Assembly: GCA_965207055.1 (NCBI GenBank)
Contig: CBDBLP010000002.1
Location: 336,152-400,151 of the forward strand
Source of the DNA: Alphaproteobacteria bacterium
GTDB lineage: Bacteria > Pseudomonadota > Alphaproteobacteria > UBA828
DNA length: 64,000 bases
Direction: 5' to 3'
Positions within the stretch are counted from its first letter, which is position 1. The number at the start of each line of letters is the position of its first letter. Of this stretch, positions 2,732 through 26,000 are shown piece after piece. Made by a program: the position numbers and the translations under genes. The notes beneath the pieces are model-generated. The model had not been told where the DNA came from, did no database searches, and worked only from the letters and a program-made list of their open reading frames with translations.

Positions 2732-2780
2732 GCCGCTCTACACCGGCAACTCCCCAGGACGGCGAGGGAGGGATGCCGGG

Positions 2781-9636: not shown

Positions 9637-9692
9637 GAAAAGTCGTGGCCAGTCACGCGAAAGGTCGTGGCCAATCGCGCGGTGGCCACGAC
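9637..9692. repeat. Iteron-like repeats: two direct 22/23-bp copies plus one inverted copy of the GTCGTGGCCA core
   Basis: GAAAAGTCGTGGCCAGTCACGCG (9637-9659) and GAAAGGTCGTGGCCAATCGCGCG (9659-9681) match at 20 of 23 positions. The inverted core TGGCCACGAC is at 9683-9692. Confidence 0.7.
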
Positions 9693-9920
9693 GAGTAGAA
9701 AATAGCGGGTGCGAAGCTGCGGTGTGGAACAGTTAGCCGGAGCGCGCGATGGCGCGGATAACCGCCTCGCGGGAGGGCGCACTACTCCCCGCGCCGCCGG
9801 TGTTTGCGGGCTCTACGGAGACTCGCTGCGGCCACCCTGAAGGGTCGGTGCATTGCCCCTGCATGGCCCCATCACGCCTGTTTCAGGGCCGAGGAAGCGG
9901 GATTGTCGCACCCGAGTGCC

Positions 9921-10391
9921 CTACACATGCCAGCGCCTGTCCCGGCCTACCGGATCGAACAGCCGAGGCCGGCGGCCGTTGCGCTTCGCCCCGGTCCAAT
10001 CCACCGCAACTATGGTCGCGTCCGCCAGGCCTGCCCCACGGAGGTCCGCCATGGAAAAATCCGCCGCAGTGAGGTCAGCGCCCATCATGGCTGCGTCACA
10101 CAAGCGAGCGGACGCGAAGCAGGCGCGCGTTGCGTCCGCTTGTCGCAGGTCAGCCCCGATCAGCACCGCCTGGCGGAGCGAAGCTGCGATCAGGTCCGCC
10201 GAATGAAGCACCGCGCCGGTGAGGTTGGAATTGCTGAGGTCGCTGCACGTCAAATCCGACCCAGAGAGGTCAGCCTGCACGAGCCGAGCCCCGGCCAGCC
10301 GCTTGCACCGCAGGTCCAGGCGCCGCAGATCGGCGCCGGCAAAGTCCCGCTCGCCGGCCGCGTATCGGGACAGCAATTCATCGGCCGTCAT
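9921..10391 (-). CDS. Pentapeptide-repeat protein
   Basis: 156 aa. A(D/N)L-type pentapeptide periodicity is visible throughout (ADLRRLDLRCKRLAGARLVQADLSGSDLTCSDLSNSNLTGAVLHSADL...). Confidence 0.85.
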   Translation of the reverse strand: MTADELLSRYAAGERDFAGADLRRLDLRCKRLAGARLVQADLSGSDLTCSDLSNSNLTGAVLHSADLIAASLRQAVLIGADLRQADATRACFASARLCDAAMMGADLTAADFSMADLRGAGLADATIVAVDWTGAKRNGRRPRLFDPVGRDRRWHV

Positions 10392-10484
10392 CGAGGCGTC
10401 TATATCGCCCTGCCACGGCCCGCGACAAGCCCCTTCCCAACATCGCGCGGGAGGTAACAGGCGGCATCTGAGTGCCCGCCTGCA

Positions 10485-13400: not shown

Positions 13401-14174
13401 GGCGTCGCCAGTGCCGCCCGATCCCTGAATTGCCTGGGCGACCAGCACCAGATTGTCGCGCACAAAGTCCAGGTCTCCCGTCTTCTCGATGACTGCCTCG
13501 GCGGCGGCGAGAAGCTGCGACGGATCGAGGCGTATTTCCTTCAGGTTGGCAGTCGCGTTCACTTCCTGCTGAAACCGTTTGATCTCTTCCCTGGACCGCC
13601 CGGTCTGTATTTCGAGCCGCGCGTAGCGCTGCTCCAGGGTGAGCATGCGCTTGAGGCCACTGGCGATGGCAAAGCCGCCGCCTGCAATTCCGAGGACGCC
13701 TGCGCCCAGGCCGATTCCGCCGCGCAGCCTGCCTGCGGTACGGGCCGCGAGGCCGGCTTCCGTGCGGAATCCCTTCAGGCGCCGGGTGAGGCGGCCAAGG
13801 GACCGCTCGCCGTCCCGGCCGGCCCGGCGGAGCCCGTGGCCGAGGCGGTTTGCTTCCTGGGTGGTCCGCTGGATCTCGCGCCGCGCGCCGCGCGCGCCCT
13901 CACGGACGCCGCGGCCCATGAGCGAGCCGCTGCGGCTTGCCTTCATCAATCCGCCGCTGAGGCGGCTCGCTTCCTTGGTGGTCCGCTGGACTTCGCGCCG
14001 TGCGCCGCGCGTGCCCTTGGCGACGTTGCGGCCCATGAGCGAGCCGCTGCCTGCGGCCTTGCGGAGGCTGCCGCCGAGGCGCTCGGTGTCCTGCGCCGCC
14101 CCCTTCGCGCCGCGGCGGAAGCGCCCCGCCGCGAGGTCGAGGAGGACGCCTACGCGATAGGTGGAATCGGCCAT
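10485..14174 (-). CDS. Phage tail tape-measure-like protein with a large internal G/P/R-rich repeat array
   Basis: 1,229 aa. Residues about 180-420 resemble the TP901-type tape-measure N-terminal domain (LEIQTGRSREEIKRFQQEV..., LGITDPAGVARAFNLW..., AFLRTLSDAQ...). Gly-rich hydrophobic segments follow. Confidence 0.7.
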   Translation of the reverse strand: MADSTYRVGVLLDLAAGRFRRGAKGAAQDTERLGGSLRKAAGSGSLMGRNVAKGTRGARREVQRTTKEASRLSGGLMKASRSGSLMGRGVREGARGARREIQRTTQEANRLGHGLRRAGRDGERSLGRLTRRLKGFRTEAGLAARTAGRLRGGIGLGAGVLGIAGGGFAIASGLKRMLTLEQRYARLEIQTGRSREEIKRFQQEVNATANLKEIRLDPSQLLAAAEAVIEKTGDLDFVRDNLVLVAQAIQGSGGTGDAIGRLAAEMRKLGITDPAGVARAFNLWTAQGKSGAFTVGNMAAQGERLTSAFARLGYQGPAAARQLGAFAQMARQSTGSSEQATTAVEAFLRTLSDAQKIDLIWEQLGVNVRDATGAFRPLDRIVKEVVDAVDGDITRLSGIIDAEGVRAISGLFTAQGRADYERFLTIEAPPDMLSRDAARMAETSAAKVQETKTDVDAWMQDKLTGPVGEVVTALTSFKDELLVGVGLLAGSWYAFKALRGAGRLFTRLAGLGGGPTTRPRSGGGRLSGTGPGSRAGPRGGGLSGTGPGTRPRLGEGRLSGTGPGTRPRVGEGRLSGSGPGSRPRAGEGRLSGTGPGSRPRLTPAHLGGTGPTTRPRSGGGRLSGTGPGSRAGPRGGGLSGTGPGTRPRLGEGRLSGTGPGSRAGPRGGGLSGTGPGTRPRLGEGRLSGTGPGTRPRVGEGRLSGSGPGSRPRAGEGRLSGTGPGSRPRLTPAHLGGTGPTTRPRSGGGRLSGTGPGSRAGPRGGGLSGTGPGTRPRLGEGRLSGTGPGTRPRVGEGRLSGTGPGSRAGPRGGGLSGTGPGTRPRLGEGRLSGTGPGSRAGPRGGGLSGTGPGTRPRLGEGRLSGTGPGTRPRVGEGRLSGSGPGSRPRAGEGRLSGTGPGSRPRLTPAHLGGTGPTTRPRSGGGRLSGTGPGSRAGPRGGGLSGTGPGTRPRLGEGRLSGTGPGTRPRVGEGRLSGTGPGSRPRAGGLWRLLTRGLGPASAGALMGLTAHDIATGAIPDDQVAPEVGGLAGGLAGSSAAGRVAGSLMRSLPGPIRFGGSLLAGLGGFMGGESAGRAATKAAFDPGWTSKESENAAQWILDLIPKRDPNAPPEIGNWRGVGLRQVPHVQRRRRRRAADMAERHGDQVWTPPEPEAEAAASGPRGRRQRRAERAGTVNIQSVIGSLTVHSNAADPREVAEEVADEIERRMRDRYNQLRDNVIASPSSEVEY
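11215..12645. repeat. About 30 tandem in-frame copies of a 48-bp (16-aa) unit organised in higher-order repeats
   Basis: The unit is GEGRLSGTGPGSRPRx. The TPAHLGGTGPTTRPRS variant recurs at 528-bp and 384-bp spacing (11 and 8 units). Long stretches are nearly identical at the DNA level. Confidence 0.85.
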
Positions 14175-14177
14175 CGG

Positions 14178-14666
14178 CTAATTCGGCGGCCCGGCACCGG
14201 CGAAGCGCCATTGCGTGCCTGGAGAGGTATGCACGGCCGCGCGGTTCTTGGTCGGGGTGGCAACCCCGGACAGGTCCGCGTCGCCGACCCAGGTGCCGCC
14301 CATGTCCGCATCCGTGAGCACGGCGCCCGCCAGGTCGACGGCGCTCATATAGGCGTGGCGCAGGTCGGCACGCTCGAGGTTCGCGCCAGCCATATAGGCA
14401 TTGGTCAGGATCGCATGGCGCAGGTCAGCGGCGCCCAGGTACGCGCCGGCAAAGCAGGCTCCGATGAGATTCGCCCCCCGAAGATCCGCGCCGCCGAGAA
14501 AGGCGCCAGCGAAGCGCGATCCCTCCAAATCGGCAGCTTGGAGACAGCACCCGGTGAGGTCCGCCCCCGCAAAATCGGCGAAGGGCAGACGCGCCGCCCA
14601 GAAGTCAGCATGCGACAGGTCGAAGCCGGCAAAATCACGGCCGGCTACGAGCAGTGCGGCCGCCAT
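14178..14666 (-). CDS. Pentapeptide-repeat protein
   Basis: 162 aa with continuous pentapeptide periodicity (ADFAGADLTGCCLQAADLEGSRFAGAFLGGADLRGANLIGACFAGAYLGAADLRHAIL...). Its stop is 4 nt upstream of the tape-measure start. Confidence 0.85.
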   Translation of the reverse strand: MAAALLVAGRDFAGFDLSHADFWAARLPFADFAGADLTGCCLQAADLEGSRFAGAFLGGADLRGANLIGACFAGAYLGAADLRHAILTNAYMAGANLERADLRHAYMSAVDLAGAVLTDADMGGTWVGDADLSGVATPTKNRAAVHTSPGTQWRFAGAGPPN

Positions 14667-14667
14667 G

Positions 14668-15666
14668 TCAGGCGGCCCGCGCGACCAAGTCGAAATTCGG
14701 ATCGTTCACGAGCGCGACGGATGACAGGCCGGTTACCTCGCCCGCGCTGTCGTGCGTGAGGGCCGGCGACAGGTGCCGGTACTCCCCGTTTGCGATCGCC
14801 GCAGCGGCCGCGTCGCCGAGCTGCATGTCCGCGTCGAGTCCGCCGTTCCCGTTGACGCGGAAATTCGAGAGCCAGCCCTCGGCCCGCGTGCTGCCGGCGA
14901 AGGTCGGCGAAACGCGCTCCGACCTATGGTCGAAGTCGATGCGGGGCGCCACGGCCTGCGCGTTGATGCGCGCCGCGAGCGCGGCCATGCTCTTGACCCG
15001 AAAGCGGCGGCCGTCGCGGCCTGTCAGGTAGCCGCCGCGCGGGGGAGGAATCACCTCCATCGTGAGCGAAGCGCCGCGCAGGTTCAGGGAAACCACCCAA
15101 GGATTGAGTGCAGAATCCGACGCCGCCATCATCGCCCGCTGGCGCGGCGGTGCGCTGCCCGGCGTTTTGCTGGTCAGCGCCCTATAGAATACCGCTCGCG
15201 CGTCGCGGTGCTCCATGGCGACCTCGCCGAGCCGATAGAACACGCGGGCGGTGCCCGCTTCGTCCGGATCGCCGCTACCGAGATCAATGTCCATGACCTC
15301 GGCCACCGCGCGCTTCTCCGCAGGCAAGGCGGCCACCCATGCCTGGACTACCAACTTGATGCTCTTGTCGCCGCCCTCCGCCATGAGGCCGATGGCGAAG
15401 GCGTCCCGCGAGGCGAAGTCAACCCCGCCCATCGCCTCGGCCACCACGTCGTGGGGCGTAGGTATGAGCGCCTGGCGAATCTGTTCCTGGTCGACATGCA
15501 TGCCCATGGCGCCCACGCCGTACCAAAAGCACGCCGTGGCCTTTTCGCCCTTCTCGCCGGCCGCGTAGAGCGGCCCGAGGCCTACCGATTCGGCGGCGCG
15601 CTTGCGCCGAGCCTCGGCGGCCCCGCACCATGCAGCGATTATGCTGTCCGGACCGCCCAACATCAC
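14668..15666 (-). CDS. Protein with a C-terminal Mu gpI-like (Mu-like_Pro) prohead protease domain and an unknown N-terminal half
   Basis: The C-terminal half (IPPPRGGYLTGRDGRRF...RIDFDHRSE...AEGWLSNFRVNGNGGLDADMQL...ANGEYRHLSPAL...GLSSVALVNDPNF) parallels Mu gpI landmarks recalled from memory: RARDGRP, IDYEHQ, AGWF, EYRYISPVF, ALTNxPAL. Confidence 0.6.
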   Translation of the reverse strand: MMLGGPDSIIAAWCGAAEARRKRAAESVGLGPLYAAGEKGEKATACFWYGVGAMGMHVDQEQIRQALIPTPHDVVAEAMGGVDFASRDAFAIGLMAEGGDKSIKLVVQAWVAALPAEKRAVAEVMDIDLGSGDPDEAGTARVFYRLGEVAMEHRDARAVFYRALTSKTPGSAPPRQRAMMAASDSALNPWVVSLNLRGASLTMEVIPPPRGGYLTGRDGRRFRVKSMAALAARINAQAVAPRIDFDHRSERVSPTFAGSTRAEGWLSNFRVNGNGGLDADMQLGDAAAAAIANGEYRHLSPALTHDSAGEVTGLSSVALVNDPNFDLVARAA

Positions 15667-16175
15667 GCCGCCCTCTGGCCGCGCAGCTGCGCCAGGCGGT
15701 CTTCGGCTGCCCGCTCGGCCGGAGTGAGTGCCGCCCGGCGGGCCTTCTCGGCCTCGGCCGCTTCGCGCTCGGCCGCCTTGCGCTCGCCTCTCTCTTTCGC
15801 CAGGCGCTCGCGCTCGGCTTTCTCGGCCGCCTTGCGCTCGGCCTTCTCGGCGGCCTCGTCCAGCGCGCGCTGCTGGGCCTCCGCCTCCCGCATTTCGGCG
15901 GCGAACTGGCGCGCCTCGATCATCCGCGCCTGGATGCGCTCAATGATTGTGACGGCATTCTGGTGCGCGGCAGCCACCTTTCTCCAGTCGTCAACGGCGG
16001 CTTCGCAGTAGTTCTCATCGCCGCTGTACCGGCGGCCGCATATCGACCCCTGAAACTCGGCGTCGTGCGAAACTCGCGCCAGCTCTCGCCGGTCCTTGGT
16101 ATCAGCCTCGCCGAGAGCGGCCAGCGCCTCCGCCAGGGTGGCCGCGTGGCGGCCGGGATCACTCCATTTGCTCAT
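15663..16175 (-). CDS. Coiled-coil, charge-repeat protein (scaffold-like), function unknown
   Basis: 170 aa from the ATG at 16175, which forms an ATGA overlap with the upstream gene. The C-terminal half is AEKAERKAAEKAERERLAKERGERKAAEREAAEAEKARR. Confidence 0.5.
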   Translation of the reverse strand: MSKWSDPGRHAATLAEALAALGEADTKDRRELARVSHDAEFQGSICGRRYSGDENYCEAAVDDWRKVAAAHQNAVTIIERIQARMIEARQFAAEMREAEAQQRALDEAAEKAERKAAEKAERERLAKERGERKAAEREAAEAEKARRAALTPAERAAEDRLAQLRGQRAA

Positions 16176-16549
16176 GTTTCCTCGCTTCGTTGCGGCCCGT
16201 CCGGGCCGGCCAGTATCGACGTTGCGTCCGCCGCGAGTCTGTGTGTCGCCCGCGCCAGCGCATACGCTCTCAGTTGCTCGCGCGTCCAGCCGCTGCGACC
16301 GGTTCCGGCGACATTGCGGGCGGCCGGCGCCAGGTGGCGCGCCTCCGCCGAATCGGGGTGGTCGCGCCTGTAAAACGGTTTGCTGTAGATCTCGAAGGTC
16401 CCAGGGGCGGGCGCAAACGGTCCCATGAGCTCGCTGAGATATCGGGCGGCTTCCTTCGTTGTCAGGAGGCCTTCGTATGCAGCGAGGCGGGCCATGGTCG
16501 GCTGGCTGTCGTTTCCGGGTTGCGGCAGGTCCACCATGCGATACCACAC
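16172..16549 (-). CDS. Small putative DNA-binding protein (HTH-like LLTTKEAARYL)
   Basis: The ORF is coupled to the downstream gene. The motif GLLTTKEAARYLSEL resembles MerR/excisionase-type HTH proteins. The real start may be the internal ATG at 16495. Confidence 0.4.
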   Translation of the reverse strand: MWYRMVDLPQPGNDSQPTMARLAAYEGLLTTKEAARYLSELMGPFAPAPGTFEIYSKPFYRRDHPDSAEARHLAPAARNVAGTGRSGWTREQLRAYALARATHRLAADATSILAGPDGPQRSEET

Positions 16550-16640
16550 TTCACCGGGGGTTTTTGGAACAAAACGGAGAAAATTGCAGAGGGCCCTGGG
16601 GGCGGCTCACCACGGGACACGACCGGACAATGTGTGCGCG

Positions 16641-17780
16641 TCAGACCACCCGATCGGCGGCGCGTGCGGCACCTTCCTCGGGCTCTTCGTCGTCCATCTG
16701 AAGGAAAAGCGCACGGATATCGGCTTGGAGGCGCTCGGACTCCTCGTCGCTCAGATTCCTTCCTAGGGGACCAATCGTGGTGATAACCAAATCAATGATT
16801 TGGTCGAAGAGGTCATTGTGGTCGCCAACACTGGGCGCCTCAGCCCGATCGCGATTCGCCAAGGCCTTGACGCGTGGCGGCAGGGGCTGTCCCGGTTCAA
16901 GCCTGCCGTCTCCGTGCTCATCTTGCCAGCGATTGAGCCAGCGGCGAATTGTCGAGACATTGGGTGCCTCGCCATGGTGTTCGATCAGCGCCTGTCGCGC
17001 ATCCTTGGCCGTGAGATGGCGACCGCGAAGCGTGGCGAGGCCCTCGAGCGTCTTCTGCATCGACGCGTCCAGCGACGTCGGTCTTCCCGTTCGGGGCCTG
17101 TCGAGTAGCGCCTCCTGTCGCGCTATTGGGTTGGCGATCCCCTTGACCTTGCCGCGCCAAGCCCCTACCGCAGATGCTGACACGCCTGCCTCTTTCCCAG
17201 CTATGGCATCAGCCTCGGCGCGCGACTTGCCCTCGCTCTTGAGGGCGTCGGAGCGCTCGATCACTGCAAGCCGTTGCGTGGCCTGTTCGCGTTGGGCTTC
17301 TGTGGCGGGTTCCGAGGCGCCGGCACCCAACACCGCTTTCGTTCCGGCGTCCTGCAGCGGCTGGTGCGGAATGGCTGCAACGGTCAGTGCCGCCACCTCC
17401 CGGCGTAAGGTGGCAATCTCGTTGAGAAATTCTCCAAGGCGGTTGCTGAGAGCGGCTTGACTGCGCTCTACGCGCTGCCGGTCTGGCGCCTCATCGATGT
17501 CGCCCGCGCCGCCCGCGAGACCCCACTCTCGAGGCGGGCCGATATAGAACTCAAGGCCCAGAGCGTCACATACGTCGGCGACGCGCGAAAGCTTTGGCTC
17601 GTGCCCGTCGAGGATGCTGCGTATAGCATCACGCGGCAGTCCGGCTGCCGTTGCGACGCCGGCCCTGGAACGACGGCCAAGCGCCGCCTCGACCGCCTTC
17701 CGAAAATCATCGAGAACTGGCGGCATAGGGTACTTGTGCCACGTTTGCCGTGCGAACACAACGGGGCGCGTGGAATACAC
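16641..17780 (-). CDS. Repressor-like protein: N-terminal XRE-type HTH plus a domain shared with the MuA-like transposase N-terminus
   Basis: The XRE-like stretch is GVATAAGLPRDAIRSILDGHEPKLSRVADVCDALGLEFYIG. Residues about 160-237 align with the transposase N-terminus. The gene is divergent from the early operon, as for Mu c. The start is uncertain (GTG 17780 or ATG 17729). Confidence 0.6.
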   Translation of the reverse strand: MYSTRPVVFARQTWHKYPMPPVLDDFRKAVEAALGRRSRAGVATAAGLPRDAIRSILDGHEPKLSRVADVCDALGLEFYIGPPREWGLAGGAGDIDEAPDRQRVERSQAALSNRLGEFLNEIATLRREVAALTVAAIPHQPLQDAGTKAVLGAGASEPATEAQREQATQRLAVIERSDALKSEGKSRAEADAIAGKEAGVSASAVGAWRGKVKGIANPIARQEALLDRPRTGRPTSLDASMQKTLEGLATLRGRHLTAKDARQALIEHHGEAPNVSTIRRWLNRWQDEHGDGRLEPGQPLPPRVKALANRDRAEAPSVGDHNDLFDQIIDLVITTIGPLGRNLSDEESERLQADIRALFLQMDDEEPEEGAARAADRVV

Positions 17781-17827
17781 TCGACGAATCTTTTGACTCT
17801 TCGTGTAATTCGTGCCACGATCGACGT

Positions 17828-18142
17828 ATGGATTCGACGCTGAGGTTGATGGAGCTCTATTCGGAGCACCGCGGCATTGCCCCGACGACGTTGGGCAGGC
17901 TCACGGTCAGCTCCTCTACTGTGGCAAAGCGCATCGGCCGAGGAGCGGTCACGATCCGCACCACCCGGAAGATTGAACGTTGGCTTTCCGACCATTGGCC
18001 AGCGGGCCTTGAGTGGCCATCCGATATCCCTCGACCGACGCCCAACCAATCACAACCTGCGGCCCGGCCAGAGGGGGGGGCGATGACTGACCCCTCGCCC
18101 GGCACCGGCGCGCGCGCCATCCGAAACCAACTTCACACCTGA
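17828..18142 (+). CDS. Small protein in the Ner position (first gene of the early operon)
   Basis: The internal ATG at 17828 gives MDSTLRLMELYSEHRGIAPTTLGRLTVSSSTVAKRIGRGAVTIRTTRKIERWL. The call rests on position and size only. Confidence 0.4.
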   Translation: MDSTLRLMELYSEHRGIAPTTLGRLTVSSSTVAKRIGRGAVTIRTTRKIERWLSDHWPAGLEWPSDIPRPTPNQSQPAARPEGGAMTDPSPGTGARAIRNQLHT

Positions 18143-18156
18143 CAGGGAGGATCACA

Positions 18157-18480
18157 ATGAGCGACGCGACACATGGCGACAATAGAAGAACGGTTGCGCT
18201 GGCGGGCGACGCGCTGACGGCCGTGGGCGACGTGCGCAGGCTCTCTGAGCACTTCGCCTGGTATGCGGACCAGGTCGCCTCGGAGGACGCTAAGGGGTGC
18301 AAAAACGGTCTCGCAGTCCTGGAATCCGCATTGCGCAGCATGAATGCGCTCGCAGACGAGGCGGAGCGGCCGCTCGAAGAGGTCTATGACCGGGCGTGCA
18401 GGGAGGAGATGGACCATGGCTCTCACCAGGAACCAGTACGCAGTTGTCCACATTGCGCGGAAGGCGCTCGGCCTGTCTGA
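18157..18480 (+). CDS. Hypothetical early-region protein
   Basis: 107-aa ORF in operon context. Its 3' end overlaps the GemA-like start by about 65 nt, so its extent is uncertain. Confidence 0.3.
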   Translation: MSDATHGDNRRTVALAGDALTAVGDVRRLSEHFAWYADQVASEDAKGCKNGLAVLESALRSMNALADEAERPLEEVYDRACREEMDHGSHQEPVRSCPHCAEGARPV

Positions 18481-18880
18481 CGGGGAATATCGCGAGGTTC
18501 TGCGAAAGATGGCCGACGTGGAGAGCTCCAAGGATCTCGACCAGGACGGCTTTGAGCTGGTCATGCAGGGCTTCGCCGCCATGGGCTACCGCTCTGATTT
18601 CACCAAGAGTTTCTACGGCCGCCGTCGAGATCGGGCCACACCGGCGCAGGTCTCCCGAATCCGCCAGCTCTGGGGCGAGTACACCGGGGGCGGTGGCGGG
18701 CAACTCTCCCTCGACAATTGGATTGAGCGCACCTTCCGGGTCTCTGCGCTGAGATTTCTCACCGCCGAGCAGGCGGAGAAGGCTGTCAAGGCCTTGTGGG
18801 CCATGCGGAATCGCCAGAAGGCCGAGCGGCGCAAGCGGCGGACCACCGCCACACCCGCTGCGGTGGGGCCTGCGGAGTGA
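18416..18880 (+). CDS. GemA-like (Mu gp16, DUF1018) regulatory protein
   Basis: MALTRNQYAVVHIARKALGLSDGEYREVLRKMADVESSKDLDQDGFELVMQGFAAMGY... is the typical DUF1018 opening. Confidence 0.65.
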   Translation: MALTRNQYAVVHIARKALGLSDGEYREVLRKMADVESSKDLDQDGFELVMQGFAAMGYRSDFTKSFYGRRRDRATPAQVSRIRQLWGEYTGGGGGQLSLDNWIERTFRVSALRFLTAEQAEKAVKALWAMRNRQKAERRKRRTTATPAAVGPAE

Positions 18881-20622
18881 CACGCACGGCGCACCACGAG
18901 CCCCGCGATGATGGGGCCTGGGAACGCGCCAGCGAGGCGCAGCGCGCTGCGGCCACGGCGCGCCTCGAAGCCGTGCGGCGAGCCGTTGCCCTCCACGCCG
19001 AAGGGCTTCCGTGTGGAGATGCGGATGCGCTCGCGGCCGAGGAGGCCGGCGTCTCGGCCAAGTCTGTCAGGCGTTGGCGTAGGGCGGTCAAGCGCGCGCC
19101 GCGCGGCATGGAGCTCGGCGCGCTGATTGACAGGCCCCGCACCGGCAGGCCGGCGGGCAAGTGGAGCGGCGCCGGGGCGCGGGAGCTCTGGCGTTTCTGG
19201 TGCAGCGACTACATGCGCGAGGAGGCGCCGCCCGCGCCGGCCGTACACCGGCGCCTCGCCGACGTAGCGGGGCAGCGGGGCTGGGAGCTCCCGCCGCTCG
19301 ACGCCTTCGTCCGGCGCACCAGGAAGGAATTCACGCGGACGGAGATCGTCCGTGCCCGGGAGGGCGCACTCGCGGCCATGAACCTGGTGCCCCACCAGAC
19401 CCGCTCCGTCGCCGGCCTCAAGCCGCTGGACATCATCAACGGCGACGGGCGCCGCCACGACGTGCTGGCGACGCTGCCCTCCGGCAAGGAGGGGCGCCCC
19501 GTAATCTGGGCGTGGCAGGACGTGCGCACGCGCAAGATCCTCGCCTGGCGCGCCGGCGAGACCGAGAGCGCCGACCTGGTGCGGACCTCGCTGCACCAGG
19601 TCATCGACGAACATGGCGTGCCCGGCCGGGTCCTCATCGATTCGACCCGCGCCGCATCGGCAAAGTGGGCGACGGGCGGACAGCCCGGCCGCAAGCGCTG
19701 GCGCTCCACCGACGAAGAGCTGCCAGGCCTGCTGAAGACGCTGGACATCGGTTATTCGGCGACGAAGGTGGACCGGGACGCGGCCGGCCGGGGCAAGGGC
19801 CGCGGGCGGGCCAAGCCCGTCGAGCGCGCGTTCCTCGATCTCGCCAACCATATCGACACGCACCCACTGCTGGCCGGCGCCTACACCGGCCGCTCGACGG
19901 TCGACCGGCCCGAGACCCACCGCATGCGTCCGGTGCCGTGGGAAACCTTCATCGACGTCGTCACCCGCTGTGTCGCCGAACACAACGCCCGCGAGGGGCG
20001 GCAGACCGAGGCCGCTGCGGGCCGGAGCTTCGACCAGGTGTGGGCGGAGGAGATCGCCGACACCGTCGTCAGCCGCCTGTCTCCGGCGCAGGCGGCGATC
20101 CTGCTGCTCGCGGCCGAGCCCTCCACGATCGACCGCTCCGGCTGCCTGATGCTGAAGGCGGGCAGGGGCGCAGGGCTGCCGGCAAACCGCTACCACAATC
20201 CCGACCTGGTCGAGCGCACCGGTGAGCGGGTGGTCGCCCGCTTCGATCCCGAGGACCTGCACGGCACGGTCCACGTCTTCGACGCCAAGGGACGCTACGT
20301 CTGCGCCGCCGGCTGCATCGCGCCCACCGGGTTCGGCGACACCGCTGCCGCCAAGGAGTGGGAGGCCGCGCGCCGACGCCGGCGCCGCAGCGCCGAGCAA
20401 GGGCTCGCGGCGCAGCGAGATATGGACGAGCTGCAACGCACCATGGCGGCGCTGCCCCCGACGACGGCAGCGCCCGAGCCCCAGCCCGCCGCCGTCCGTC
20501 TCGTGACGGGCGAGAGCGTGCCGCGGCCCCCGACCGGCGGTGATGTGCCAGCCCCGCGCGGCCGCAGTGCATTCATGACGGCGCTCAGGACCGTCCGGCA
20601 GATCGAGGAGAGCGAAGAATGA
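18877..20622 (+). CDS. MuA-like DDE transposase
   Basis: The GTG at 18877 overlaps the GemA-like stop (GTGA). N-terminal HTH modules are present. The catalytic core has DIINGDGRRHD, VLIDSTRAAS and AKPVERAF. The C-terminal region is typical of Mu-transposase-family proteins. Confidence 0.75.
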   Translation: MTRTAHHEPRDDGAWERASEAQRAAATARLEAVRRAVALHAEGLPCGDADALAAEEAGVSAKSVRRWRRAVKRAPRGMELGALIDRPRTGRPAGKWSGAGARELWRFWCSDYMREEAPPAPAVHRRLADVAGQRGWELPPLDAFVRRTRKEFTRTEIVRAREGALAAMNLVPHQTRSVAGLKPLDIINGDGRRHDVLATLPSGKEGRPVIWAWQDVRTRKILAWRAGETESADLVRTSLHQVIDEHGVPGRVLIDSTRAASAKWATGGQPGRKRWRSTDEELPGLLKTLDIGYSATKVDRDAAGRGKGRGRAKPVERAFLDLANHIDTHPLLAGAYTGRSTVDRPETHRMRPVPWETFIDVVTRCVAEHNAREGRQTEAAAGRSFDQVWAEEIADTVVSRLSPAQAAILLLAAEPSTIDRSGCLMLKAGRGAGLPANRYHNPDLVERTGERVVARFDPEDLHGTVHVFDAKGRYVCAAGCIAPTGFGDTAAAKEWEAARRRRRRSAEQGLAAQRDMDELQRTMAALPPTTAAPEPQPAAVRLVTGESVPRPPTGGDVPAPRGRSAFMTALRTVRQIEESEE

Positions 20623-21578
20623 CCGAGACCGTCACCGCGTTCCCCGGCCCGGACGCGATGCCCACCGCTCACGAGGCGGCCGTAGAGGCATGCCGGGCGG
20701 AGATAAAGGCCACGGGCCTCTCCATCGCCCAGGCGGCACGCGAGATGGACCGCGTCTCCAACACCACGCTCTCGAAGTGGCTGCGCGGCGTCTATGACGG
20801 CGACGTGCCGGCGGTCACCGAGTGCGTGATGGCCTGGCTTGCGACACGTCAGGAAAAGGCCCGCCGCGACATGGGCGCGGCGGGGCTCGATCGCTTCGCC
20901 GATCTCCGGGTCACTGCGGAGGTCGAAGACGCCCTCAGCTATGCCCAGGCCACCGGTGACATCGTTCTCGTGCACGGCCGCTCCGGCTGTGGCAAGAGCT
21001 GGGGCGTAACGCGCTACTGCAACGGGCACGGCGCCACCCATCGCCTCACCGTCACCAAAGCCGTGGTGAGGCTGGCCGGGCTGGTCAACCGCATATCGGC
21101 TGCCGTCGACGCGGGCACCGGCCATTCCTCCACCCTCGCGGCCGAGACGGCGGTGATCCGCAAGTTGGAGGGGCGGGGTGCGTTGCTCTGCATCGACGAG
21201 GCGCAGCGCCTCTCGGTCCCGCTTCTCGACGAAGTCCGCAGCATCCGCGACGAAGCCGGTTGCGGCGTCGCGCTGATCGGCGACAACAGGATCTGGAATA
21301 CGTTGACCAAGTCCGAAGACTGCGATCAGATCGTCGGCCGCATCGGAATACGCCTGCCCCTGGAGCCCACCTACGATTCCGACATCCTCGAGCTCGCCCG
21401 CAGCGTCCTCGGCCGCGATCCCGGCAAGGGCGAGATCAAACGCCTCAGAGCAGCCGCCTGCGGTGCGGGCGGGTTGCATGCGCTGCGCCGACTTCTGGCC
21501 CGCGCCTGGATGATCGCGCGTGCCGGCGATCGACCGATCGCGGCGGACGATGTTGCCGCTGCGGCCGAGGCGGCGTGA
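20619..21578 (+). CDS. MuB-like AAA+ transposition ATPase
   Basis: N-terminal HTH (GLSIAQAAREMDRVSNTTLSKWLRG), Walker A GRSGCGKSW and Walker B LLCIDEAQRL. Its start overlaps the transposase stop. Confidence 0.75.
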   Translation: MTETVTAFPGPDAMPTAHEAAVEACRAEIKATGLSIAQAAREMDRVSNTTLSKWLRGVYDGDVPAVTECVMAWLATRQEKARRDMGAAGLDRFADLRVTAEVEDALSYAQATGDIVLVHGRSGCGKSWGVTRYCNGHGATHRLTVTKAVVRLAGLVNRISAAVDAGTGHSSTLAAETAVIRKLEGRGALLCIDEAQRLSVPLLDEVRSIRDEAGCGVALIGDNRIWNTLTKSEDCDQIVGRIGIRLPLEPTYDSDILELARSVLGRDPGKGEIKRLRAAACGAGGLHALRRLLARAWMIARAGDRPIAADDVAAAAEAA

Positions 21579-21609
21579 GTTTTCTCAGCGAACACCGGGG
21601 CGCGTAGCG

Positions 21610-22653
21610 GTGGCCGGGAGATTCGGCGGGGCCTTCGCCCCCACGCCCTTCGATCTGCACCACGGCTCCACGCTGCGGGTGCTGACCAGGGACAACGCCC
21701 GCAGGGTCGACAAGCTGCTCTCGCAGTGGGGCGGGGAAGGCCCCGTAACAAGCAAGTTGCGGGACGCCATCACCGCCGAACACGATGCGAAGGTCTTGCG
21801 TGCGGTGACCGAGCCGCTCTGCCGGGGCTGGTCTCTCCAGTGGATCGCGAACTTCCTGGAGCGGGAGCCCCATCTGCTCCCTCCAGCTGACTACCGGGAG
21901 TTGCGGTTGGGTCGGGACGCGTCCGGTGGCGGCTGGTACCCTGAGACGGTGGCCAGAATATTCCGGCGCAACGGCATTTCCACCGTGGATGCCACCTGGC
22001 GGCACAAGCTTTGCGAGGCCGTCGAGGCAGTGGTTGGTCACGCGCCCCACGCCGGCTGCGACTTCAAGCAGGCCGTGCGCGAGATCACGGATAGGCGCGT
22101 CCTTACTGAAGCCCAGGCGCGGGCATGGCAGGCGCGGATCGAGCCGCCCTCCGACAAATGGGGGGTGAGGACGCTCAAGGCGTTTCTCATGCTCGGCGGC
22201 GGCGACTATGGGGCCGTGCACACCCCTCCTGCCGAGTACCAGGCCGGTCTGTGGCGGGAGCACATTGGGTGCCGCTGGCTGGACGGCGAATCACCTGAAG
22301 CGATCGCAGACGCGCTGGATGCGGCCGGCGTTCTCACGCCCTCCCAGCAGCGCGCTCTCTACGAGGGGCGGCTCGTGTGGAAAAGGAAGTGGACCGCCTC
22401 GACCGTCCGCGGCCTGGTGCGGCGGCGGGGCAAGCACCGCACCTGGTCAGAAGCGGAGAGGCAGGCGCACCGCTGCGCCTCTCGCGGGCACATCTCCCCG
22501 CTCCGCGCTGTCGGCAAGAGCGCACGTGCCGTAGCCGACGCGCTGAACGCTGCCGGCGTCCTAACGCCTTCCCAGCAGCGCGCGAGGGATCAAGGGCGGG
22601 CACCGCCCGATGCCCGCTGGAGCGCCGGCTCCGTACTTCGCCTCGCCGCTTGA
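21610..22653 (+). CDS. Protein with three serine-recombinase 'Recombinase'-domain-like modules and no catalytic domain
   Basis: Module 1 is WIANFLERE...GGGWYPETVARIFRRNG, module 2 is IADALDAAGVLTPSQQRALYEGRLVWKRKWTASTVRGLVRR, and module 3 is VADALNAAGVLTPSQQRARDQGRAPPDARWSAGSVLRL. The start is uncertain; the GTG at 21610 is the first start codon after the MuB stop. Confidence 0.45.
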   Translation: MAGRFGGAFAPTPFDLHHGSTLRVLTRDNARRVDKLLSQWGGEGPVTSKLRDAITAEHDAKVLRAVTEPLCRGWSLQWIANFLEREPHLLPPADYRELRLGRDASGGGWYPETVARIFRRNGISTVDATWRHKLCEAVEAVVGHAPHAGCDFKQAVREITDRRVLTEAQARAWQARIEPPSDKWGVRTLKAFLMLGGGDYGAVHTPPAEYQAGLWREHIGCRWLDGESPEAIADALDAAGVLTPSQQRALYEGRLVWKRKWTASTVRGLVRRRGKHRTWSEAERQAHRCASRGHISPLRAVGKSARAVADALNAAGVLTPSQQRARDQGRAPPDARWSAGSVLRLAA

Positions 22654-23074
22654 CTCTGGTGAGCGCAACCGGATAACGGGAGCGCTTTTGCCGTTTTGCG
22701 CCAGTTAAGCGATTTCGGCGCCGCCGCACTCTACTTTCCCTGAACTTAGACTCCCGGAGCCGCGAAGCCCCCATGCCGGGGCTGACGCCGCTCTGACTCA
22801 GTATTGCGCTCATAACGTTAAGAAGTCGTGGGAAACGCCTTCCGGAGGCCTTGATCGCAGCGCGCGCCACCCACCACGGGCGCCACGTCACCGGCCCCTC
22901 AGCGCTCGTTCTGGATAACCGGCCCGACTGTGCGGCGCCCATTCATATGCCCTGCACGGTCCTTGTATCCCGCTGTCACCGCCGGTTTCCGGCCGGCGCG
23001 GCGCCCTTGCCCGACTGCTCTCCGCACCCGCGCCTGGCGCTCCGGGCGGATCGCGAGATTCGAGATGCTTCCGG

Positions 23075-26000
23075 ATGATTCCACCCATCGCACCTCATCA
23101 GGCCTACTCAGGACTAGTCAGCCCACGACTTAACCGTATCTACACGCTCCTCTCCACCTTCCTAGGACCTCAGCCCCACGCCCAGAGCCAAGACAGGAAT
23201 GCTACCGATATTTGGGTCGACGAAGGCGGGAATGTAGAGGCAAGCACTGCCACGTTGACGATCAACGAAGGAGAGACCAAGAGCTACAGCGTGCGACTCA
23301 CGAAGCAACCACATTCGGAAGCCGACCAAGACTGGTGGGTCATGATCGTGGTCGACGGCAAGCGGCGCAACGACAGATTCTATCCCAACGAAGAGAATCC
23401 GATCGTCAGCTGGTCACCGTCGATCGGGAGAACATTCGACAGGGGCAACTGGAACCGATGGAAAGACATCACAATTACGGCGCACCAGGATGACGACGAC
23501 GATGATCACACAATAATCTTTTCCTCCGAACTGTGGGATCACGACGCCTACTGTCCTCCAGACTTGCACGGGGGTGGCACACCCCTGGCGATGGTGACCG
23601 TCCACATTATTGACGACGATGGCGACTTGCCGAGCCTGTCTATCGAAGACACGACGGTCGACGAGGGAGACGAGGCAGAATTCGTCGTAAAGCTGAGCAA
23701 GGTGAGCGACGAGACCGTGTCGGTGAGGTACGCGACGTCGGGAGGAACCGCCACCGAGGGCACGGACTACACCCGTGAAACCGGCACACTTACCTTCGAG
23801 CCTGGCCAAACACAAAAGTCCATCGAAGTACAGACAACCCAGGACGAGCTCGACGAACCGAACGAGGAGTTCTCCCTAACCCTGAGCAACCCCGACCGCG
23901 CGGCACTGAGCAGGGGCACGGGAACCGGGACGATCAAGGACAACGACGATCCGAATCTCTCCATCGCGGATGCGACGCCGGTGGTCGAGGGCGGGACGGC
24001 AGAGTTCGTCGTGACGATGAGCATAGAGAGCACGCGAAGCGTGACGGTCAACTACCAGACCAGGAGCGGGACGGCAGTCGCGGGACAGGATTTCCAGACG
24101 ACGTCGGGCATCCTGACTTTCAACCCGAACACCACGCAGCAGACCATCTCGGTGCCCACAACCGACGATGCGACCGACGAGGTGGACGGGGAGACCTTCA
24201 CGGTGACGCTGAGTGCTCCCAACGGCGCGACGCTCGAAGACGGCTCCGCAACGGGAACCATCAACGACAACGACGAGGCGAAGCTCTCCATCTCGGATGC
24301 CACGGCGGTTGAGGGAAACCCGGCGCGATTCGACGTGACGCTGAGCCCGGCGAGCGACCGGACCGTGACGGTGAGCTACGCGACGTCGGGGGTGACGGCG
24401 ACCGAGGGCACGGACTACACCGGGACGTCCGACACAACACTCACCTTCTCGGCCGGCGAACTGCAGAAAAGGATCGAGATAGCGACCCACACGGACTCTA
24501 CCGTCGAGCCCGATGAAACCTTTAGGGTCACGTTAAGCAGCCCGAGCGAAGCGGGCATAGAGGACGGCACCGCGACGGGGACGATCACCGACGATGACCT
24601 GCCGGCGCTCTCCATCGCGGACGCGCCGGCGGTGACCGAGGGTGAGACGGCAGAGTTCGTCGTGACTCTGAGCGCGCCCAACATGGATCCCGTGACGGTC
24701 AGCTACGAAACGGCAAGCGGGACCGCGACCGAGGGCACGGACTTCACCCGGACGACCGACACGCTGAACTTCAGCGCAAACTCGAACACACCGCAAATCC
24801 GGACCATCTCGGTGCCGACGGAAGATGACGGTGACGAGGAGACGAGCGAGACCTTCACAGTCCGACTGACCAACGCCGACGGCGCAACAGTGGAGGACGG
24901 CACTGCAACGGGGACCATCAACGATAACGACGACCCAGAACCAAACCCGAATCCGAATCCCAACCCGAACCCCAACCCCAACCCCAACCCCAACCCCAAC
25001 CCCAACCCCAACCCCAACCCCAACCCCAACCCCGACCCGGGTGATAACAACGACAACAACGACAACGGGGGCGACGGAAATGGCGGCAACGGGGGCAACG
25101 GCGGCAATGGTGGGAACGGCGAGAACGGCGAGAACGGTGGAAACGGTAACGGTGACGGAAACGGCGGAAATGACGGCAACGGCGAAAATGGCGAAAACGG
25201 TGAGAGCGGTGGCAACGGTGAGAACGGCGGCAACGGAAACGGCGACGGAAACGGCGGAGGCAGCCTCCCGACCCTCTCCATTGCGGACGCGACGGCGGAC
25301 GAGGGAGAAAGAGCAGGCTTCGCAATAACGCTGAGCGCGTCCAGCGACCAGGACGTGACCGTGCAATATCGGACGGTGGACGGAACGGCGGAATCGGGCA
25401 CTGACTACACCGCGATATCCGACACGCTCACCTTCCCCTCCGGCACCACACGGCAACTTGTGGAGGTGTCCACCCTCGACGATGCATCCCGAGAAGCGGA
25501 CGAGACGTTCACGGTGACGCTGGGCAACCCCACCGGCGCGACGCTGGAAGACGGCTCCGCAACGGGGACGATCATCGACAATGACGACGCACCAACCCTC
25601 TCCATCGCTGACGCGACTGCCATCGAGGGAGGAGGTGCGGAATTCCTCGTAACGCTCAGCCCGGCGAGCGCGGAAACCGTGACGGTCGACTACCGGACGG
25701 CCAGCGGAACGGCCATCGCGGGAGAGGATTTCGACACCACATCGGGCACTCTGACCTTCGCTCCCAATGCCACAGAGCAGACCATCACGGTTCAGACCCG
25801 CGAGGACGACCTGGACGAGCCGGAAGAGATCTTTGCCTTGACGCTGAGTAACCCCGACGGGGCGACGCTGGCGGACACCAGCGCGACGGGGACGATTGTC
25901 GACGATGACGTGTCGGGCTTCTCCATCGCGGACGCGGCGGTGGAGGAGGGAAGCACGGCAGAGTTCGTCGTGACGCTCAGCGTGCCAAGCTGGCAGAGAA

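What the first reader, a model, noticed from the sequence alone, without database searches (positions are those of the whole stretch)
16565..22703. Mu-type early region with no late genes and candidate TGG..CCA inverted termini: a possible natural mini-Mu or satellite-like transposable element
A repressor-like gene faces a rightward operon encoding a Ner-position protein, a GemA-like protein, a MuA-like DDE transposase and a MuB-like ATPase, which is the Mu early-region layout. Just outside these genes, TGGAACAAAACGGAGAAA (starting at 16565) and the reverse complement of the sequence ending at 22703 (TGGCGCAAAACGGCAAAA) match at 14 of 18 positions, begin with TG, and are A-rich in a GC-rich context. 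The 6.1-kb unit would contain no lysis, head or tail genes. It could be a decayed prophage, an autonomous Mu-derived transposon, or an element mobilised and packaged by a helper Mu-like phage. The flanking pentamers (GTTTT and GTTAA) are not identical, so the ends are tentative. Non-identical flanks would also be expected after intramolecular replicative transposition, which might explain the oppositely oriented phage block next door.
Basis: partly seen in the sequence, partly recalled or inferred. Interest (0 to 1): 0.7.

Follow-up and report, generated by a model that had tools for sequence, protein, structure and literature searches.

The report
Compact Mu-like transposable element, probable satellite
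The flagged Mu-type early genes are real, but they sit inside a larger 13.5-kb Mu-like mobile element (9627-23144) with proper ends and a 5-bp target duplication; it belongs to a small conserved family of stripped-down Mu relatives that look like parasites (satellites) of complete Mu-like phages, a kind my literature searches did not find described.

Summary
The genes are as described: a leftward repressor-like gene, then rightward Ner-position, GemA, MuA (DDE intact) and MuB genes. The 14/18 inverted match at 16565/22703 is also there. It does not mark the ends.

Right ends of three complete relatives give the signature TGT-N10-AAGTYG. It occurs exactly twice in the window, at 9627(+) and 23144(-), facing inward around the whole phage-derived block. 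Both copies are flanked by the same 5 bp, CGCTC. The element is therefore 9627-23144 (13,518 bp) and includes the "oppositely oriented block next door".

The same compact layout recurs at unrelated sites in three metagenome contigs:
- Shared genes: Recombinase-domain protein, MuB, MuA, GemA, a repressor lacking the S24 domain, a coiled-coil protein, a prohead protease with a novel N-domain, a pentapeptide protein, tape measure, and a second pentapeptide protein.
- The ends are conserved on each side, and one contig shows a second target duplication.
- dN/dS is 0.18-0.47 for the nine genes tested.

The family has no capsid, portal, terminase, sheath, tube or baseplate genes. It is at most 0.36 the size of a complete relative (≥38 kb).

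Best reading: a self-transposing, helper-dependent Mu-type satellite. Helper dependence is inferred, not shown. The mini-Mu/satellite idea is partly supported; the proposed termini and extent are refuted.

The parts
9622..9626 (.). Left copy of the 5-bp target-site duplication, CGCTC
   Evidence: Read directly. Identical to 23145-23149.
9627..9720 (+). True left (tape-measure-side) end: TGTAGCCGCGGAAAAGTCGTGGCC... It has two 22-bp direct repeats (AAGTCGTGGCC at 9640, AGGTCGTGGCC at 9662), an inverted copy at 9681-9692, and a block GAGTAG-N9-GGTGCGA
   Evidence: Matches TGT-N10-AAGTYG, a pattern derived only from the right ends of complete relatives. TRF finds the 22-bp repeat at 9637-9681. The end sequence is conserved in L015 and L016. 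It matches the right end at 17/22, or 20/30.
9860..9892 (+). Conserved subterminal hairpin-like motif (TGCATGGCCCC..CGCCTGTTTCAGGGCCGA)
   Evidence: 29/34 identical to the right-end region of complete prophage L012. Function unknown.
9921..10391 (-). Pentapeptide-repeat protein 2 (156 aa)
   Evidence: PF00805. 82-88% identical in L014, L015 and L016. dN/dS 0.22-0.27.
10485..14174 (-). Tail tape measure protein (1229 aa) with an internal array of 96-bp-based repeats at 11227-12626
   Evidence: PF10145 and phrog_973. The first ~500 aa are 72-74% identical to the tape measure of complete prophage L001/L011, and a conserved C-terminal-proximal stretch (~160 aa) is about 75% identical. TRF.
14178..14666 (-). 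Pentapeptide-repeat protein 1 (162 aa)
   Evidence: PF00805, 3.8e-32. 55-60% identical in L014 and L015; absent from L016.
14668..15666 (-). X332: a prohead (Mu gpI-type) protease domain at residues ~184-331, fused to a novel helical N-terminal domain at 1-165
   Evidence: PF10123 and phrog_328. A conserved family of 325-339 aa, 51-88% identical over the full length. Residues 184-328 are 58% identical to the N-terminal protease domain of a complete phage's 327-aa protease-scaffold protein. H246 and S299 are invariant. The model shows an assemblin/prohead protease fold.
15663..16175 (-). Coiled-coil protein (170 aa), conserved partner upstream of X332
   Evidence: 54-79% identical in L014, L015 and L016. 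No Pfam hit.
16172..16495 (-). Small ORF (107 aa) found only in the window's copy. An excisionase/MerR-type HTH is my reading of the motif LLTTKEAARYL, with no family hit
   Evidence: Translation. No counterpart in L014, L015 or L016. No Pfam hit.
16565..16582 (+). Internal, not an end
   Evidence: Lies in a segment specific to the window's copy. See the observation check.
16641..17780 (-). Repressor-position protein (379 aa): a CI-type N-terminal DNA-binding domain, a domain resembling the MuA N-terminal DNA-binding domain, and an acidic tail. No S24 peptidase domain
   Evidence: HTH_32. Residues 1-91 are 63% identical to the N-terminus of the S24 (LexA-type) repressor of complete prophage L004. 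Residues ~157-290 resemble MuA N-termini. 56-70% identical in L015 and L016.
17750..18142 (+). Ner-position small protein
   Evidence: phrog_7669. 63% identical to the gene following the repressor in L004.
18157..18480 (+). Small conserved ORF (107 aa)
   Evidence: 38% identical counterparts in L014 and L015.
18344..18880 (+). GemA-like protein (true start probably near 18416)
   Evidence: PF06252, 9.7e-20. 70-83% identical in L015 and L016.
18796..20622 (+). MuA-type DDE transposase
   Evidence: DDE_2, 2.9e-49. Aligns to the Mu transpososome chain 4FCY at 2e-91, with the motifs INGDG, IDSTR and PVERAF holding D, D and E. 84% identical to the MuA of complete prophage L001.
20619..21578 (+). 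MuB-type AAA+ transposition ATPase
   Evidence: AAA_22, Phage-MuB_C and phrog_296. 73% identical to L001.
21520..22653 (+). Protein of 377 aa with repeated 'Recombinase' (PF07508) DNA-binding modules and no catalytic domain. Family-specific gene after MuB
   Evidence: The direct repeats are 228 bp apart. 44-84% identical in L014, L015 and L016. Absent from complete relatives.
22686..22703 (-). Internal conserved non-coding block, not an end
   Evidence: Homology to L015 continues on both sides, and the motif itself is not conserved.
22812..22834 (+). Inverted internal copy of the terminal repeat (ACGTTAAGAAGTCGTGGGAAACG), about 320 bp inside the right end
   Evidence: One of only three exact AAGTCGTGG sites in the window. 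An equivalent site sits at the same distance in L015 and L016.
22880..23144 (-). True right (MuA/MuB-side) end region. Read inward it is TGTAGATACGGTTAAGTCGTGGGC..., with subterminal GAGTAG-N9-GGTGCGA and GGTGGAATCATCCGGAAG
   Evidence: Matches TGT-N10-AAGTYG. Aligns to the right-end regions of L011 and L012; CTTCCGGATGATTCCAC matches L011's CTTCCGGGTGATTCCAC at 16 of 17. The end is conserved in L014 and L016.
23145..23149 (.). Right copy of the 5-bp target-site duplication, CGCTC
   Evidence: Read directly.

Best explanation
The flagged genes are one arm of a 13,518-bp Mu-type transposable element at 9627-23144. It inserted between a GntR-family regulator gene and a Calx-beta protein gene and made a 5-bp duplication (CGCTC).

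The element belongs to a small conserved family of compact Mu derivatives.
- One arm carries regulation and transposition: a repressor without an S24 cleavage domain, a Ner-position protein, GemA, MuA, MuB, and a Recombinase-domain DNA-binding protein.
- The other arm carries a few virion-related genes: a coiled-coil protein, a prohead protease fused to a new N-terminal domain, two pentapeptide-repeat proteins and a tape measure.
- It has no capsid, portal, terminase, sheath, tube or baseplate genes.

Most likely mode of action. It moves and replicates with its own MuA/MuB acting on its TGT...ACA ends. It depends on a related complete Mu-like myophage for particles, which makes it a satellite. 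Its protease, coiled-coil and tape-measure proteins would enter or redirect the helper's head and tail assembly.

Shown: the ends, the target duplication, the gene content, the conserved family at unrelated sites, purifying selection, and close kinship to complete phages.
Inferred: helper dependence, packaging, and any capsid or tail remodelling.
For: Ends
- The right ends of complete relatives were fixed where L011 and L013 diverge, immediately after ...ACA.
- The pattern derived from them, TGT-N10-AAGTYG, hits the window exactly twice, at 9627(+) and 23144(-). Chance expectation is 0.22 hits.
- The two flanks are identical, CGCTC.
- Exact AAGTCGTGG occurs three times in the window, all in the two end regions. 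There is a 22-bp tandem repeat at the left end.

Family
- L014, L015 and L016 carry the same genes in the same order.
- 11.3 of the 13.5 kb align colinearly with L014 and L015.
- The flanks share no similarity, so the insertions are independent.
- The end sequences are conserved separately for each side, and L016 has a second duplication, GGGGG.
- dN/dS is 0.18-0.47 for each of the nine genes tested.

Kinship with complete phages
- MuA is 84% identical, MuB 73%, the first ~500 aa of the tape measure 72-74% with its conserved C-terminal-proximal stretch about 75%, and the protease domain 58%.
- The repressor N-terminus and the Ner-position protein are each 63% identical to L004.
- The complete relative spans at least 37,995 bp, a size ratio of at most 0.36.
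- The compact elements L016 and L015 come from the same samples as the complete phages L001/L013 and L002.

Protein integrity
- The protease keeps its invariant His and Ser and has a prohead protease fold.
- The MuA DDE motifs are intact.
Against: - There is no evidence of packaging or of a helper in this genome. The rest of the 64-kb window is host DNA, and the source genome was not in the searchable genome collection.
- Nothing was found in IMG/VR viral contigs or in JGI metagenomes.
- The family is narrow: 5 cluster representatives among 1.84 billion proteins.
- The tape measures are not consistently shorter or longer than those of complete phages. Compact elements have 1005-1229 aa and complete phages 966-1203 aa, so tail-length remodelling has no support.
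- L016 lacks the tape measure and one pentapeptide gene, so those genes are dispensable for persistence.
- The left ends of complete relatives were not reached, so shared packaging signals are untested.
Confidence: 0.55

Rival explanations
1. Autonomous Mu-derived transposon. The compact family spreads only by its own MuA/MuB within and between replicons and is never packaged. Its virion-related genes are exapted for something unrelated to particles.
For: MuA and MuB are intact, and the ends and target duplications are proper. Insertion sites are independent. No virome or IMG/VR hit was found. L016 persists without a tape measure.
Against: The prohead protease domain keeps its catalytic His and Ser and stays 58% identical to that of complete phages. 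The tape measure keeps both conserved end regions at 72-82% identity to complete phages. Both genes are under purifying selection. This is hard to explain without an interaction with virion assembly.
Confidence: 0.2
2. Interference or defence island. This is a domesticated defective prophage lineage kept because its variant protease, tape measure or repressor poisons the assembly of related Mu-like phages, or blocks their superinfection. It gains no transfer of its own.
For: The variant assembly proteins are close to those of complete phages. The repressor N-terminus and Ner-position protein are 63% identical to those of complete prophage L004. Assembly-interference defences carried on mobile elements are documented (PMC10884400 and PMC11364771, found).
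Against: No PADLOC family hit. The element keeps full transposition machinery and has moved to unrelated sites, which is behaviour of a selfish element. Interference and satellite lifestyles are not mutually exclusive.
Confidence: 0.17
3. One-off decayed prophage. An ordinary Mu-like prophage inserted here and later lost most genes through internal deletions and an inversion.
For: All identifiable parts have homologues in complete Mu-like prophages. The tape measure is on the opposite strand from its position in complete relatives.
Against: The same compact gene order recurs in three other contigs at unrelated sites. The ORFs are intact and tightly packed, and dN/dS is below 0.5. The protease fusion is a conserved family of constant length.
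Confidence: 0.04
4. The first reader's 6.1-kb mini-Mu, bounded by TGG..CCA at 16565 and 22703.
For: A 14/18 inverted match with TG starts, reached in only 0.3% of shuffles under that constraint. CAAAACGG is unique to these two sites.
Against: There is no duplication (GTTTT versus GTTAA). The match is not conserved. Homology with related elements runs straight through both sites. The true ends, with a duplication, lie elsewhere.
Confidence: 0.01

Closest known systems
Bacteriophage Mu and Mu-like transposable prophages (Mu, D108, SfMu; Mu itself is among the closest isolated phages, 38% MuA identity)
   Same: A MuA DDE transposase and a MuB ATPase. A repressor facing a rightward early operon with a Ner-position gene and GemA. 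5'-TG...CA-3' ends with repeated subterminal sites. A 5-bp target duplication.
   Different: It is 13.5 kb rather than about 37-39 kb. It has no capsid, portal, terminase, sheath, tube, baseplate, fibre or lysis genes. The transposase genes lie mid-element in a divergent two-arm layout rather than next to the left end. The repressor carries a domain resembling the MuA N-terminal DNA-binding domain and has no S24 domain.
Uncultured complete Mu-like myophages of Rhodospirillales-type alphaproteobacteria (loci L001/L011/L018, L004/L012, L013)
   Same: The same lineage: MuA 70-84% identical, MuB 61-73%, the first ~500 aa of the tape measure 67-74%, the protease domain 58%. The terminal signature TGT-N10-AAGTYG is the same. 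The right-end subterminal motif is shared. The divergent arm layout is the same.
   Different: The complete phages are at least 38 kb and carry full head, lysis, tail and baseplate modules. Their protease carries a C-terminal scaffold domain rather than the novel N-domain. L004's repressor is S24-type. They lack the Recombinase-domain gene and the two small pentapeptide genes.
Laboratory mini-Mu elements (Mu ends plus A/B; reviewed in PMC3145075)
   Same: Mu ends with the transposition genes and without the morphogenetic genes. From general knowledge of Mu, such elements are transposition-competent and can be packaged only by a helper Mu.
   Different: This one is natural, conserved and under selection. 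It carries its own immunity region and a specific set of virion-related genes.
Phage satellites (P4, SaPI/PICI, cfPICI, PLE)
   Same: About one third of the helper genome size, the same ratio as P4/P2 and SaPI1/80alpha (from general knowledge). Its own regulation and replication functions. Only a handful of assembly-related genes that resemble helper proteins. A repressor lacking an SOS-cleavable domain.
   Different: It has no integrase and no site-specific attachment. It integrates and presumably replicates by Mu-type transposition. It has no recognisable terminase small subunit or capsid-size genes of the known types. Helper dependence is not demonstrated.

Membership tests
Mu-type transposable element | MuA-family DDE transposase with an intact catalytic triad | tested here: met
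   PF02914, PF09039 and PF09299. Alignment to 4FCY/1BCO at 2e-91 with the D, D and E motifs conserved.
Mu-type transposable element | MuB-type AAA+ target-selection ATPase encoded after the transposase | tested here: met
   AAA_22, weak Phage-MuB_C, and phrog_296 at 4e-48.
Mu-type transposable element | 5'-TG...CA-3' inverted ends with repeated subterminal transposase-binding sites | tested here: met
   TGTAG...CTACA. 17/22 terminal identity. 22-bp repeats of AAGTCGTGGCC. In register with the ends of relatives. Binding by the transposase itself was not tested.
Mu-type transposable element | 5-bp target-site duplication | tested here: met
   CGCTC on both sides of the window's element. GGGGG on both sides of L016.
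Complete Mu-like prophage (transposable phage) | Full head, packaging, tail and lysis gene set | tested here: not met
   Only a tape measure and a protease variant lie between the ends. Complete relatives carry terminase, portal, F, capsid, sheath, tube, baseplate and lysis genes.
Phage satellite (general definition) | Cannot build virions itself; has its own replication and regulation; size a fraction of the helper's | tested here: met
   Gene content. 13,518 bp against at least 37,995 bp for the L001-contig phage.
Phage satellite (general definition) | Induced, packaged and transferred only with a helper phage | not testable with these tools
   No particle or induction data. No IMG/VR hits.
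Known satellite families (P4-like, PICI, cfPICI, PLE) | Integrase-mediated site-specific integration, and each family's marker genes | tested here: not met
   The Pfam and PHROG scans of the proteins between the ends found no integrase catalytic domain. The 377-aa protein has only non-catalytic 'Recombinase' modules. Insertion is by transposition, as the duplication shows.

The most novel reading that the evidence does not exclude
This is the first recognised family of Mu-type transposable phage satellites. They are compact elements that integrate and amplify by MuA/MuB transposition rather than by an integrase and a replicon. They share end sequences and an immunity type with complete Mu-like myophages. 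They use a retargeted prohead protease, a coiled-coil partner and their own tape measure to take over the helper's head and tail assembly. At about one third of the helper's genome size, they may be packaged into small capsids.
Probability: 0.4. Interest if true: 0.8.

Novelty: new variant of a known kind. Interest (0 to 1): 0.62.

Why it matters
Every established satellite family I know of, and those retrieved in my three literature searches, integrates with an integrase or a comparable site-specific system and replicates from its own origin. A satellite that rides on Mu-type replicative transposition would be a new way of parasitising a phage.

It would matter for gene transfer. Mu-type headful packaging takes flanking host DNA. 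A 13.5-kb element packaged into full-size heads would carry about 25 kb of host DNA per particle. Packaged into small heads, it would exclude the helper genome.

The family also offers three natural experiments:
- A prohead protease whose scaffold/targeting domain has been swapped for another domain.
- A repressor that has exchanged its SOS-cleavable domain for a domain resembling the transposase's DNA-binding domain.
- End sequences of an uncultured alphaproteobacterial Mu lineage, defined here together with target duplications.

For annotation, the result shows that a leftover early region plus a neighbouring phage block can be one intact, conserved mobile element.

Tried and rejected
- The 16565/22703 termini. 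I searched for the motif in relatives and found none, aligned the spacers with the related elements and ran a shuffle test. Rejected as ends.
- A blind scan for any TG...CA inverted pair with equal 5-bp flanks. It returns about 7 chance pairs at >=15/22, and 2 at >=17/22. It is not decisive alone, so I relied on the pattern derived from relatives.
- My first alternative right-end candidates (CA at 23100, 23110 or 23121, with GAGTAG as the terminus). Dropped once the in-register TGT-N10-AAGTCG match and the duplication were seen.
- tblastx of the element against the loci. It was dominated by sum-statistic noise in GC-rich wrong frames, so I discarded it and replaced it with ORF-based tblastn.
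- Looking for a remnant of the baseplate-hub gene (gpD) at 22704-22880. None was found.
- A look-up of the window's own MuA. It is not on record, so other copies and a possible helper in the source genome could not be examined. The genome is also not in the genome collection.
- The left end of a complete relative. It was not reached, because the head/baseplate arm runs beyond the 10-kb flank.
- Searches of IMG/VR and JGI metagenomes with MuA, the X332 alignment and both end patterns. All were empty.
- PADLOC, Rfam and tRNA searches. Nothing found.
- The N-terminal domain of X332. No structural match.
- Sequence similarity between the small pentapeptide proteins and the 439-aa pentapeptide protein in the baseplate module of a complete phage. 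None was detected.

Full report
**1.

The two 18-mers are at the stated coordinates and match at 14 of 18 positions. The flanks are GTTTT and GTTAA. CAAAACGG occurs only at these two places in the 64-kb window, in inverted orientation.

The genes are also as described:
- a leftward repressor-position gene at 16641-17780;
- a Ner-position gene at 17750-18142 (phrog_7669);
- GemA at 18344-18880 (PF06252);
- a MuA-type transposase at 18796-20622 (DDE_2, HTH_Tnp_Mu_2, Mu-transpos_C);
- a MuB-type ATPase at 20619-21578.

The transposase aligns to the Mu transpososome chain 4FCY at 2e-91, and the three catalytic motifs are intact. As a candidate pair of termini, however, the match is weak. It reaches 14/18 in 9% of shuffles of the two spacers, and in 0.3% if TG starts are demanded. 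The region holds 537 inverted pairs.

**2. Where the ends really are**

The closest MuA relatives (70-84% identical) lie in complete Mu-like myophage prophages in metagenome contigs. Extending three of them through their tape measure genes reached host DNA about 250 bp after a gpD-like gene. L011 and L013 are nearly identical in this stretch and diverge immediately after ...ACA, which fixes the right end to the base.

Read inward, the three right ends are:
- TGTTAGGGGGCAGAAGTCG
- TGTCAGAGGGCAGAAGTCG
- TGTGAAGACGCAGAAGTTG

This gives the pattern TGT-N10-AAGTYG. The pattern owes nothing to the window, yet it matches the window exactly twice, at 9627(+) and 23144(-). Chance expectation is 0.22 matches. 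The two sites face inward around the whole phage-derived block. The five bases outside each site are identical: CGCTC at 9622-9626 and at 23145-23149.

Further support:
- The two ends match each other at 17 of 22 positions, or 20 of 30.
- Exact AAGTCGTGG occurs three times in the window, all in the two end regions.
- The left end carries two 22-bp direct repeats of that motif.
- Both ends share a subterminal block, GAGTAG-N9-GGTGCGA.
- The stretch 22880-23144 aligns with the right-end regions of L011 and L012. Within it, CTTCCGGATGATTCCAC differs from L011's CTTCCGGGTGATTCCAC at one position in 17.

The element is therefore 9627-23144, 13,518 bp. It sits between a GntR-family regulator gene and a Calx-beta protein gene. 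The mechanical start of the Calx-beta ORF at 23075 lies inside the element's end and must be wrong.

**3. The proposed termini are internal**

The left site (16565) lies in a roughly 400-bp segment that the three related elements lack. The right site (22703) lies in a conserved non-coding block. In L015 that block reads CGGCGCGAGACGGTAAAAGCGCTCCCGTTATCCGG, with homology continuing on both sides. Colinear DNA alignment with L014 and L015 runs through both positions.

**4. A conserved compact family, not a wreck**

The 332-aa protein at 14668-15666 looked like a decay fusion. It is instead a family of constant length (325-339 aa), 51-88% identical over its full length.

The contigs carrying its closest members have the same gene order as the window:

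Recombinase-domain protein, MuB, MuA, GemA, small ORFs | repressor with HTH_32, coiled-coil protein of 166-170 aa, X330, pentapeptide protein, tape measure, pentapeptide protein.

Other points:
- 11.3 of the 13.5 kb align colinearly with L014 and L015.
- L016 is an 11.9-kb variant. It has a more divergent, rve-type transposase and lacks the tape measure and one pentapeptide gene.
- The flanks of the four copies share no similarity at DNA or protein level, so these are independent insertions.
- The end sequences are conserved separately for each side. On the MuA/MuB side they read TGTAGATACGGTTAAGTCGTGGGC, TGTGGACTCTGTTAAGGCGTGGGC and TGTAGAATCTGTTAAGTCTTGGGC. On the tape-measure side they read TGTAGCCGCGGAAAAGTCGTGGCC, TGTGGCGCGGGGAAAGTCGTGGCC and TGTCGCCGCGGGAAAGGCGTGGGC.
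- L016 has its own 5-bp duplication, GGGGG.
- Pairwise dN/dS is 0.18-0.47 for X332, the coiled-coil protein, the pentapeptide protein, GemA, MuA, MuB, the Recombinase-domain protein and the tape measure.
- The family is narrow. The N-terminal domain of X332 finds only five cluster representatives among 1.84 billion proteins.

**5. Relation to complete phages**

The complete relatives have a divergent layout. Lysis, terminase, portal, F, protease-scaffold, capsid, head completion, PAAR, baseplate and fibre genes run leftward from the repressor. The early genes run rightward, followed by sheath, tube, chaperone, tape measure, gpU, gpX and gpD. A minus-strand late arm beside the repressor is therefore normal for this lineage and needs no intramolecular transposition to explain it.

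The phage in the L001 contig spans at least 37,995 bp, so the compact element is at most 0.36 of its size.

The compact elements keep close versions of only some phage parts:
- MuA 84% and MuB 73% identical.
- The first ~500 aa of the tape measure 72-74%, and its conserved C-terminal-proximal stretch about 75%.
- The protease domain 58% identical. Its His and Ser are invariant, and the model has an assemblin/prohead protease fold.
- The repressor N-terminus and the Ner-position protein each 63% identical to L004.

Two domain swaps stand out:
- The complete phage's protease carries a C-terminal scaffold domain. The compact version carries a new helical N-terminal domain instead, and a separate coiled-coil gene lies upstream.
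- L004's repressor has an S24 peptidase domain. The compact version has a domain resembling the MuA N-terminal DNA-binding domain.

The immunity region is the most divergent part between copies (gap at 17329-18072).

**6. How it most likely works**

Shown: a bounded Mu-type element with a target duplication, intact MuA and MuB, its own immunity region, a conserved gene set under selection, independent insertions, and no means of building a particle.

Inferred:
- After derepression it amplifies by MuA/MuB transposition on its own ends.
- Its repressor lacks S24, so it probably does not respond to SOS directly. It may respond to a helper function instead.
- Particles come from a related complete phage.
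- The protease variant, the coiled-coil protein and the tape measure enter helper assembly. The size ratio of about one third matches that of P4/P2 and SaPI1/80alpha (general knowledge), which suggests small capsids.

I give about 0.95 to the boundaries and the family, and about 0.4-0.55 to the satellite reading. The main rivals are a never-packaged autonomous transposon and an assembly-interference island. They overlap with the satellite reading and cannot be separated without particle data.

**7. Against the satellite reading**
- No helper is visible in the window.
- The source genome could not be searched.
- Searches of the viral-contig (IMG/VR) and JGI metagenome collections found nothing.
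- Tape measure lengths overlap those of complete phages.
- L016 does without the tape measure.

**8. Known or new**

Three full-text searches found natural Mu-like prophages, laboratory mini-Mu elements and many satellite families. None described a Mu-type transposable satellite or a conserved natural mini-Mu family. This is absence in the searched library only. I rate the finding a new variant of known kinds.

Noticed in passing
window 2117-5092 (+): A second, unrelated transposition module about 4.5 kb left of the element. It has an HTH_23 protein (2117-2731), an HTH_32+rve transposase (2781-4262) and an AAA_22 ATPase (4259-5092), a TniA/TniB- or Mu/Tn552-like pair. Its ends were not sought.
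   Followed up: partly
window 23075-29233 (+): The mechanical start of the 2052-aa Calx-beta ORF (ATG at 23075) lies inside the element's right end. The real start must be downstream of 23149, for example the ATG at 23200-23202.
   Followed up: partly
L016 2097-2139: Two Mu-type ends abut tail to tail, separated only by GGGGG (...CATTTACA GGGGG TGTGGACTC...). The compact element lies directly against the end of another MuA/MuB-carrying element, and the 5 bp equal the compact element's duplication. This is unexpected if Mu-type target immunity operates.
   Followed up: partly
L017 2595-13022: A distant relative of the X332 module sits between the MuB and MuA genes of what looks like a complete prophage. 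The module has a 683-aa HTH protein, GemA, a 166-aa protein and a 332-aa protease variant (53% identical). CTTCCGGATGATTCCACC, identical to window 23068-23085, follows it. The same gap holds about three tandem copies of a roughly 200-bp repeat (GGTCCTCAATCAGCCAAT...).
   Followed up: partly
proteins P0012, P0014, P0026, P0049: Several MuA homologues (59-65% identical, 676-734 aa) carry an N-terminal PF03592 domain, which I recall to be a small terminase subunit family. If so, the transposase is fused to a packaging-type DNA-binding domain.
   Followed up: no
L018 15046-16703: In the complete phage, a 439-aa pentapeptide-repeat protein follows a PAAR protein inside the baseplate module. Pentapeptide proteins may therefore be tail-tip components in this lineage. 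No sequence similarity to the element's small pentapeptide proteins was detected.
   Followed up: partly
window 9860-9892 and 22937-22985; L012 14542-14575: A hairpin-like motif (TGCAyGGCCCC...CGCCTGTTTCnGGGCCGA) occurs in the same orientation about 160-265 bp inside both ends of the element and in the right-end region of complete phages. Function unknown.
   Followed up: partly
window 11227-12626: The tape measure gene contains about 14.6 copies of a 96-bp unit (also seen as periods of 144, 240 and 384 bp). This likely explains the length differences among relatives, 1005-1229 aa.
   Followed up: no
window 9325-9470: A sharply AT-rich stretch upstream of the GntR-family gene, about 160-300 bp from the insertion point, in a genome of 68% G+C.
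   Followed up: no
L005-L008 (MAG CBDBIK01, contigs 2, 5, 6, 9): One alphaproteobacterial MAG carries four nearly identical copies (98-99.8%) of a related, apparently full-length Mu-like prophage (MuA 59% identical). This suggests recent transposition bursts.
   Followed up: partly
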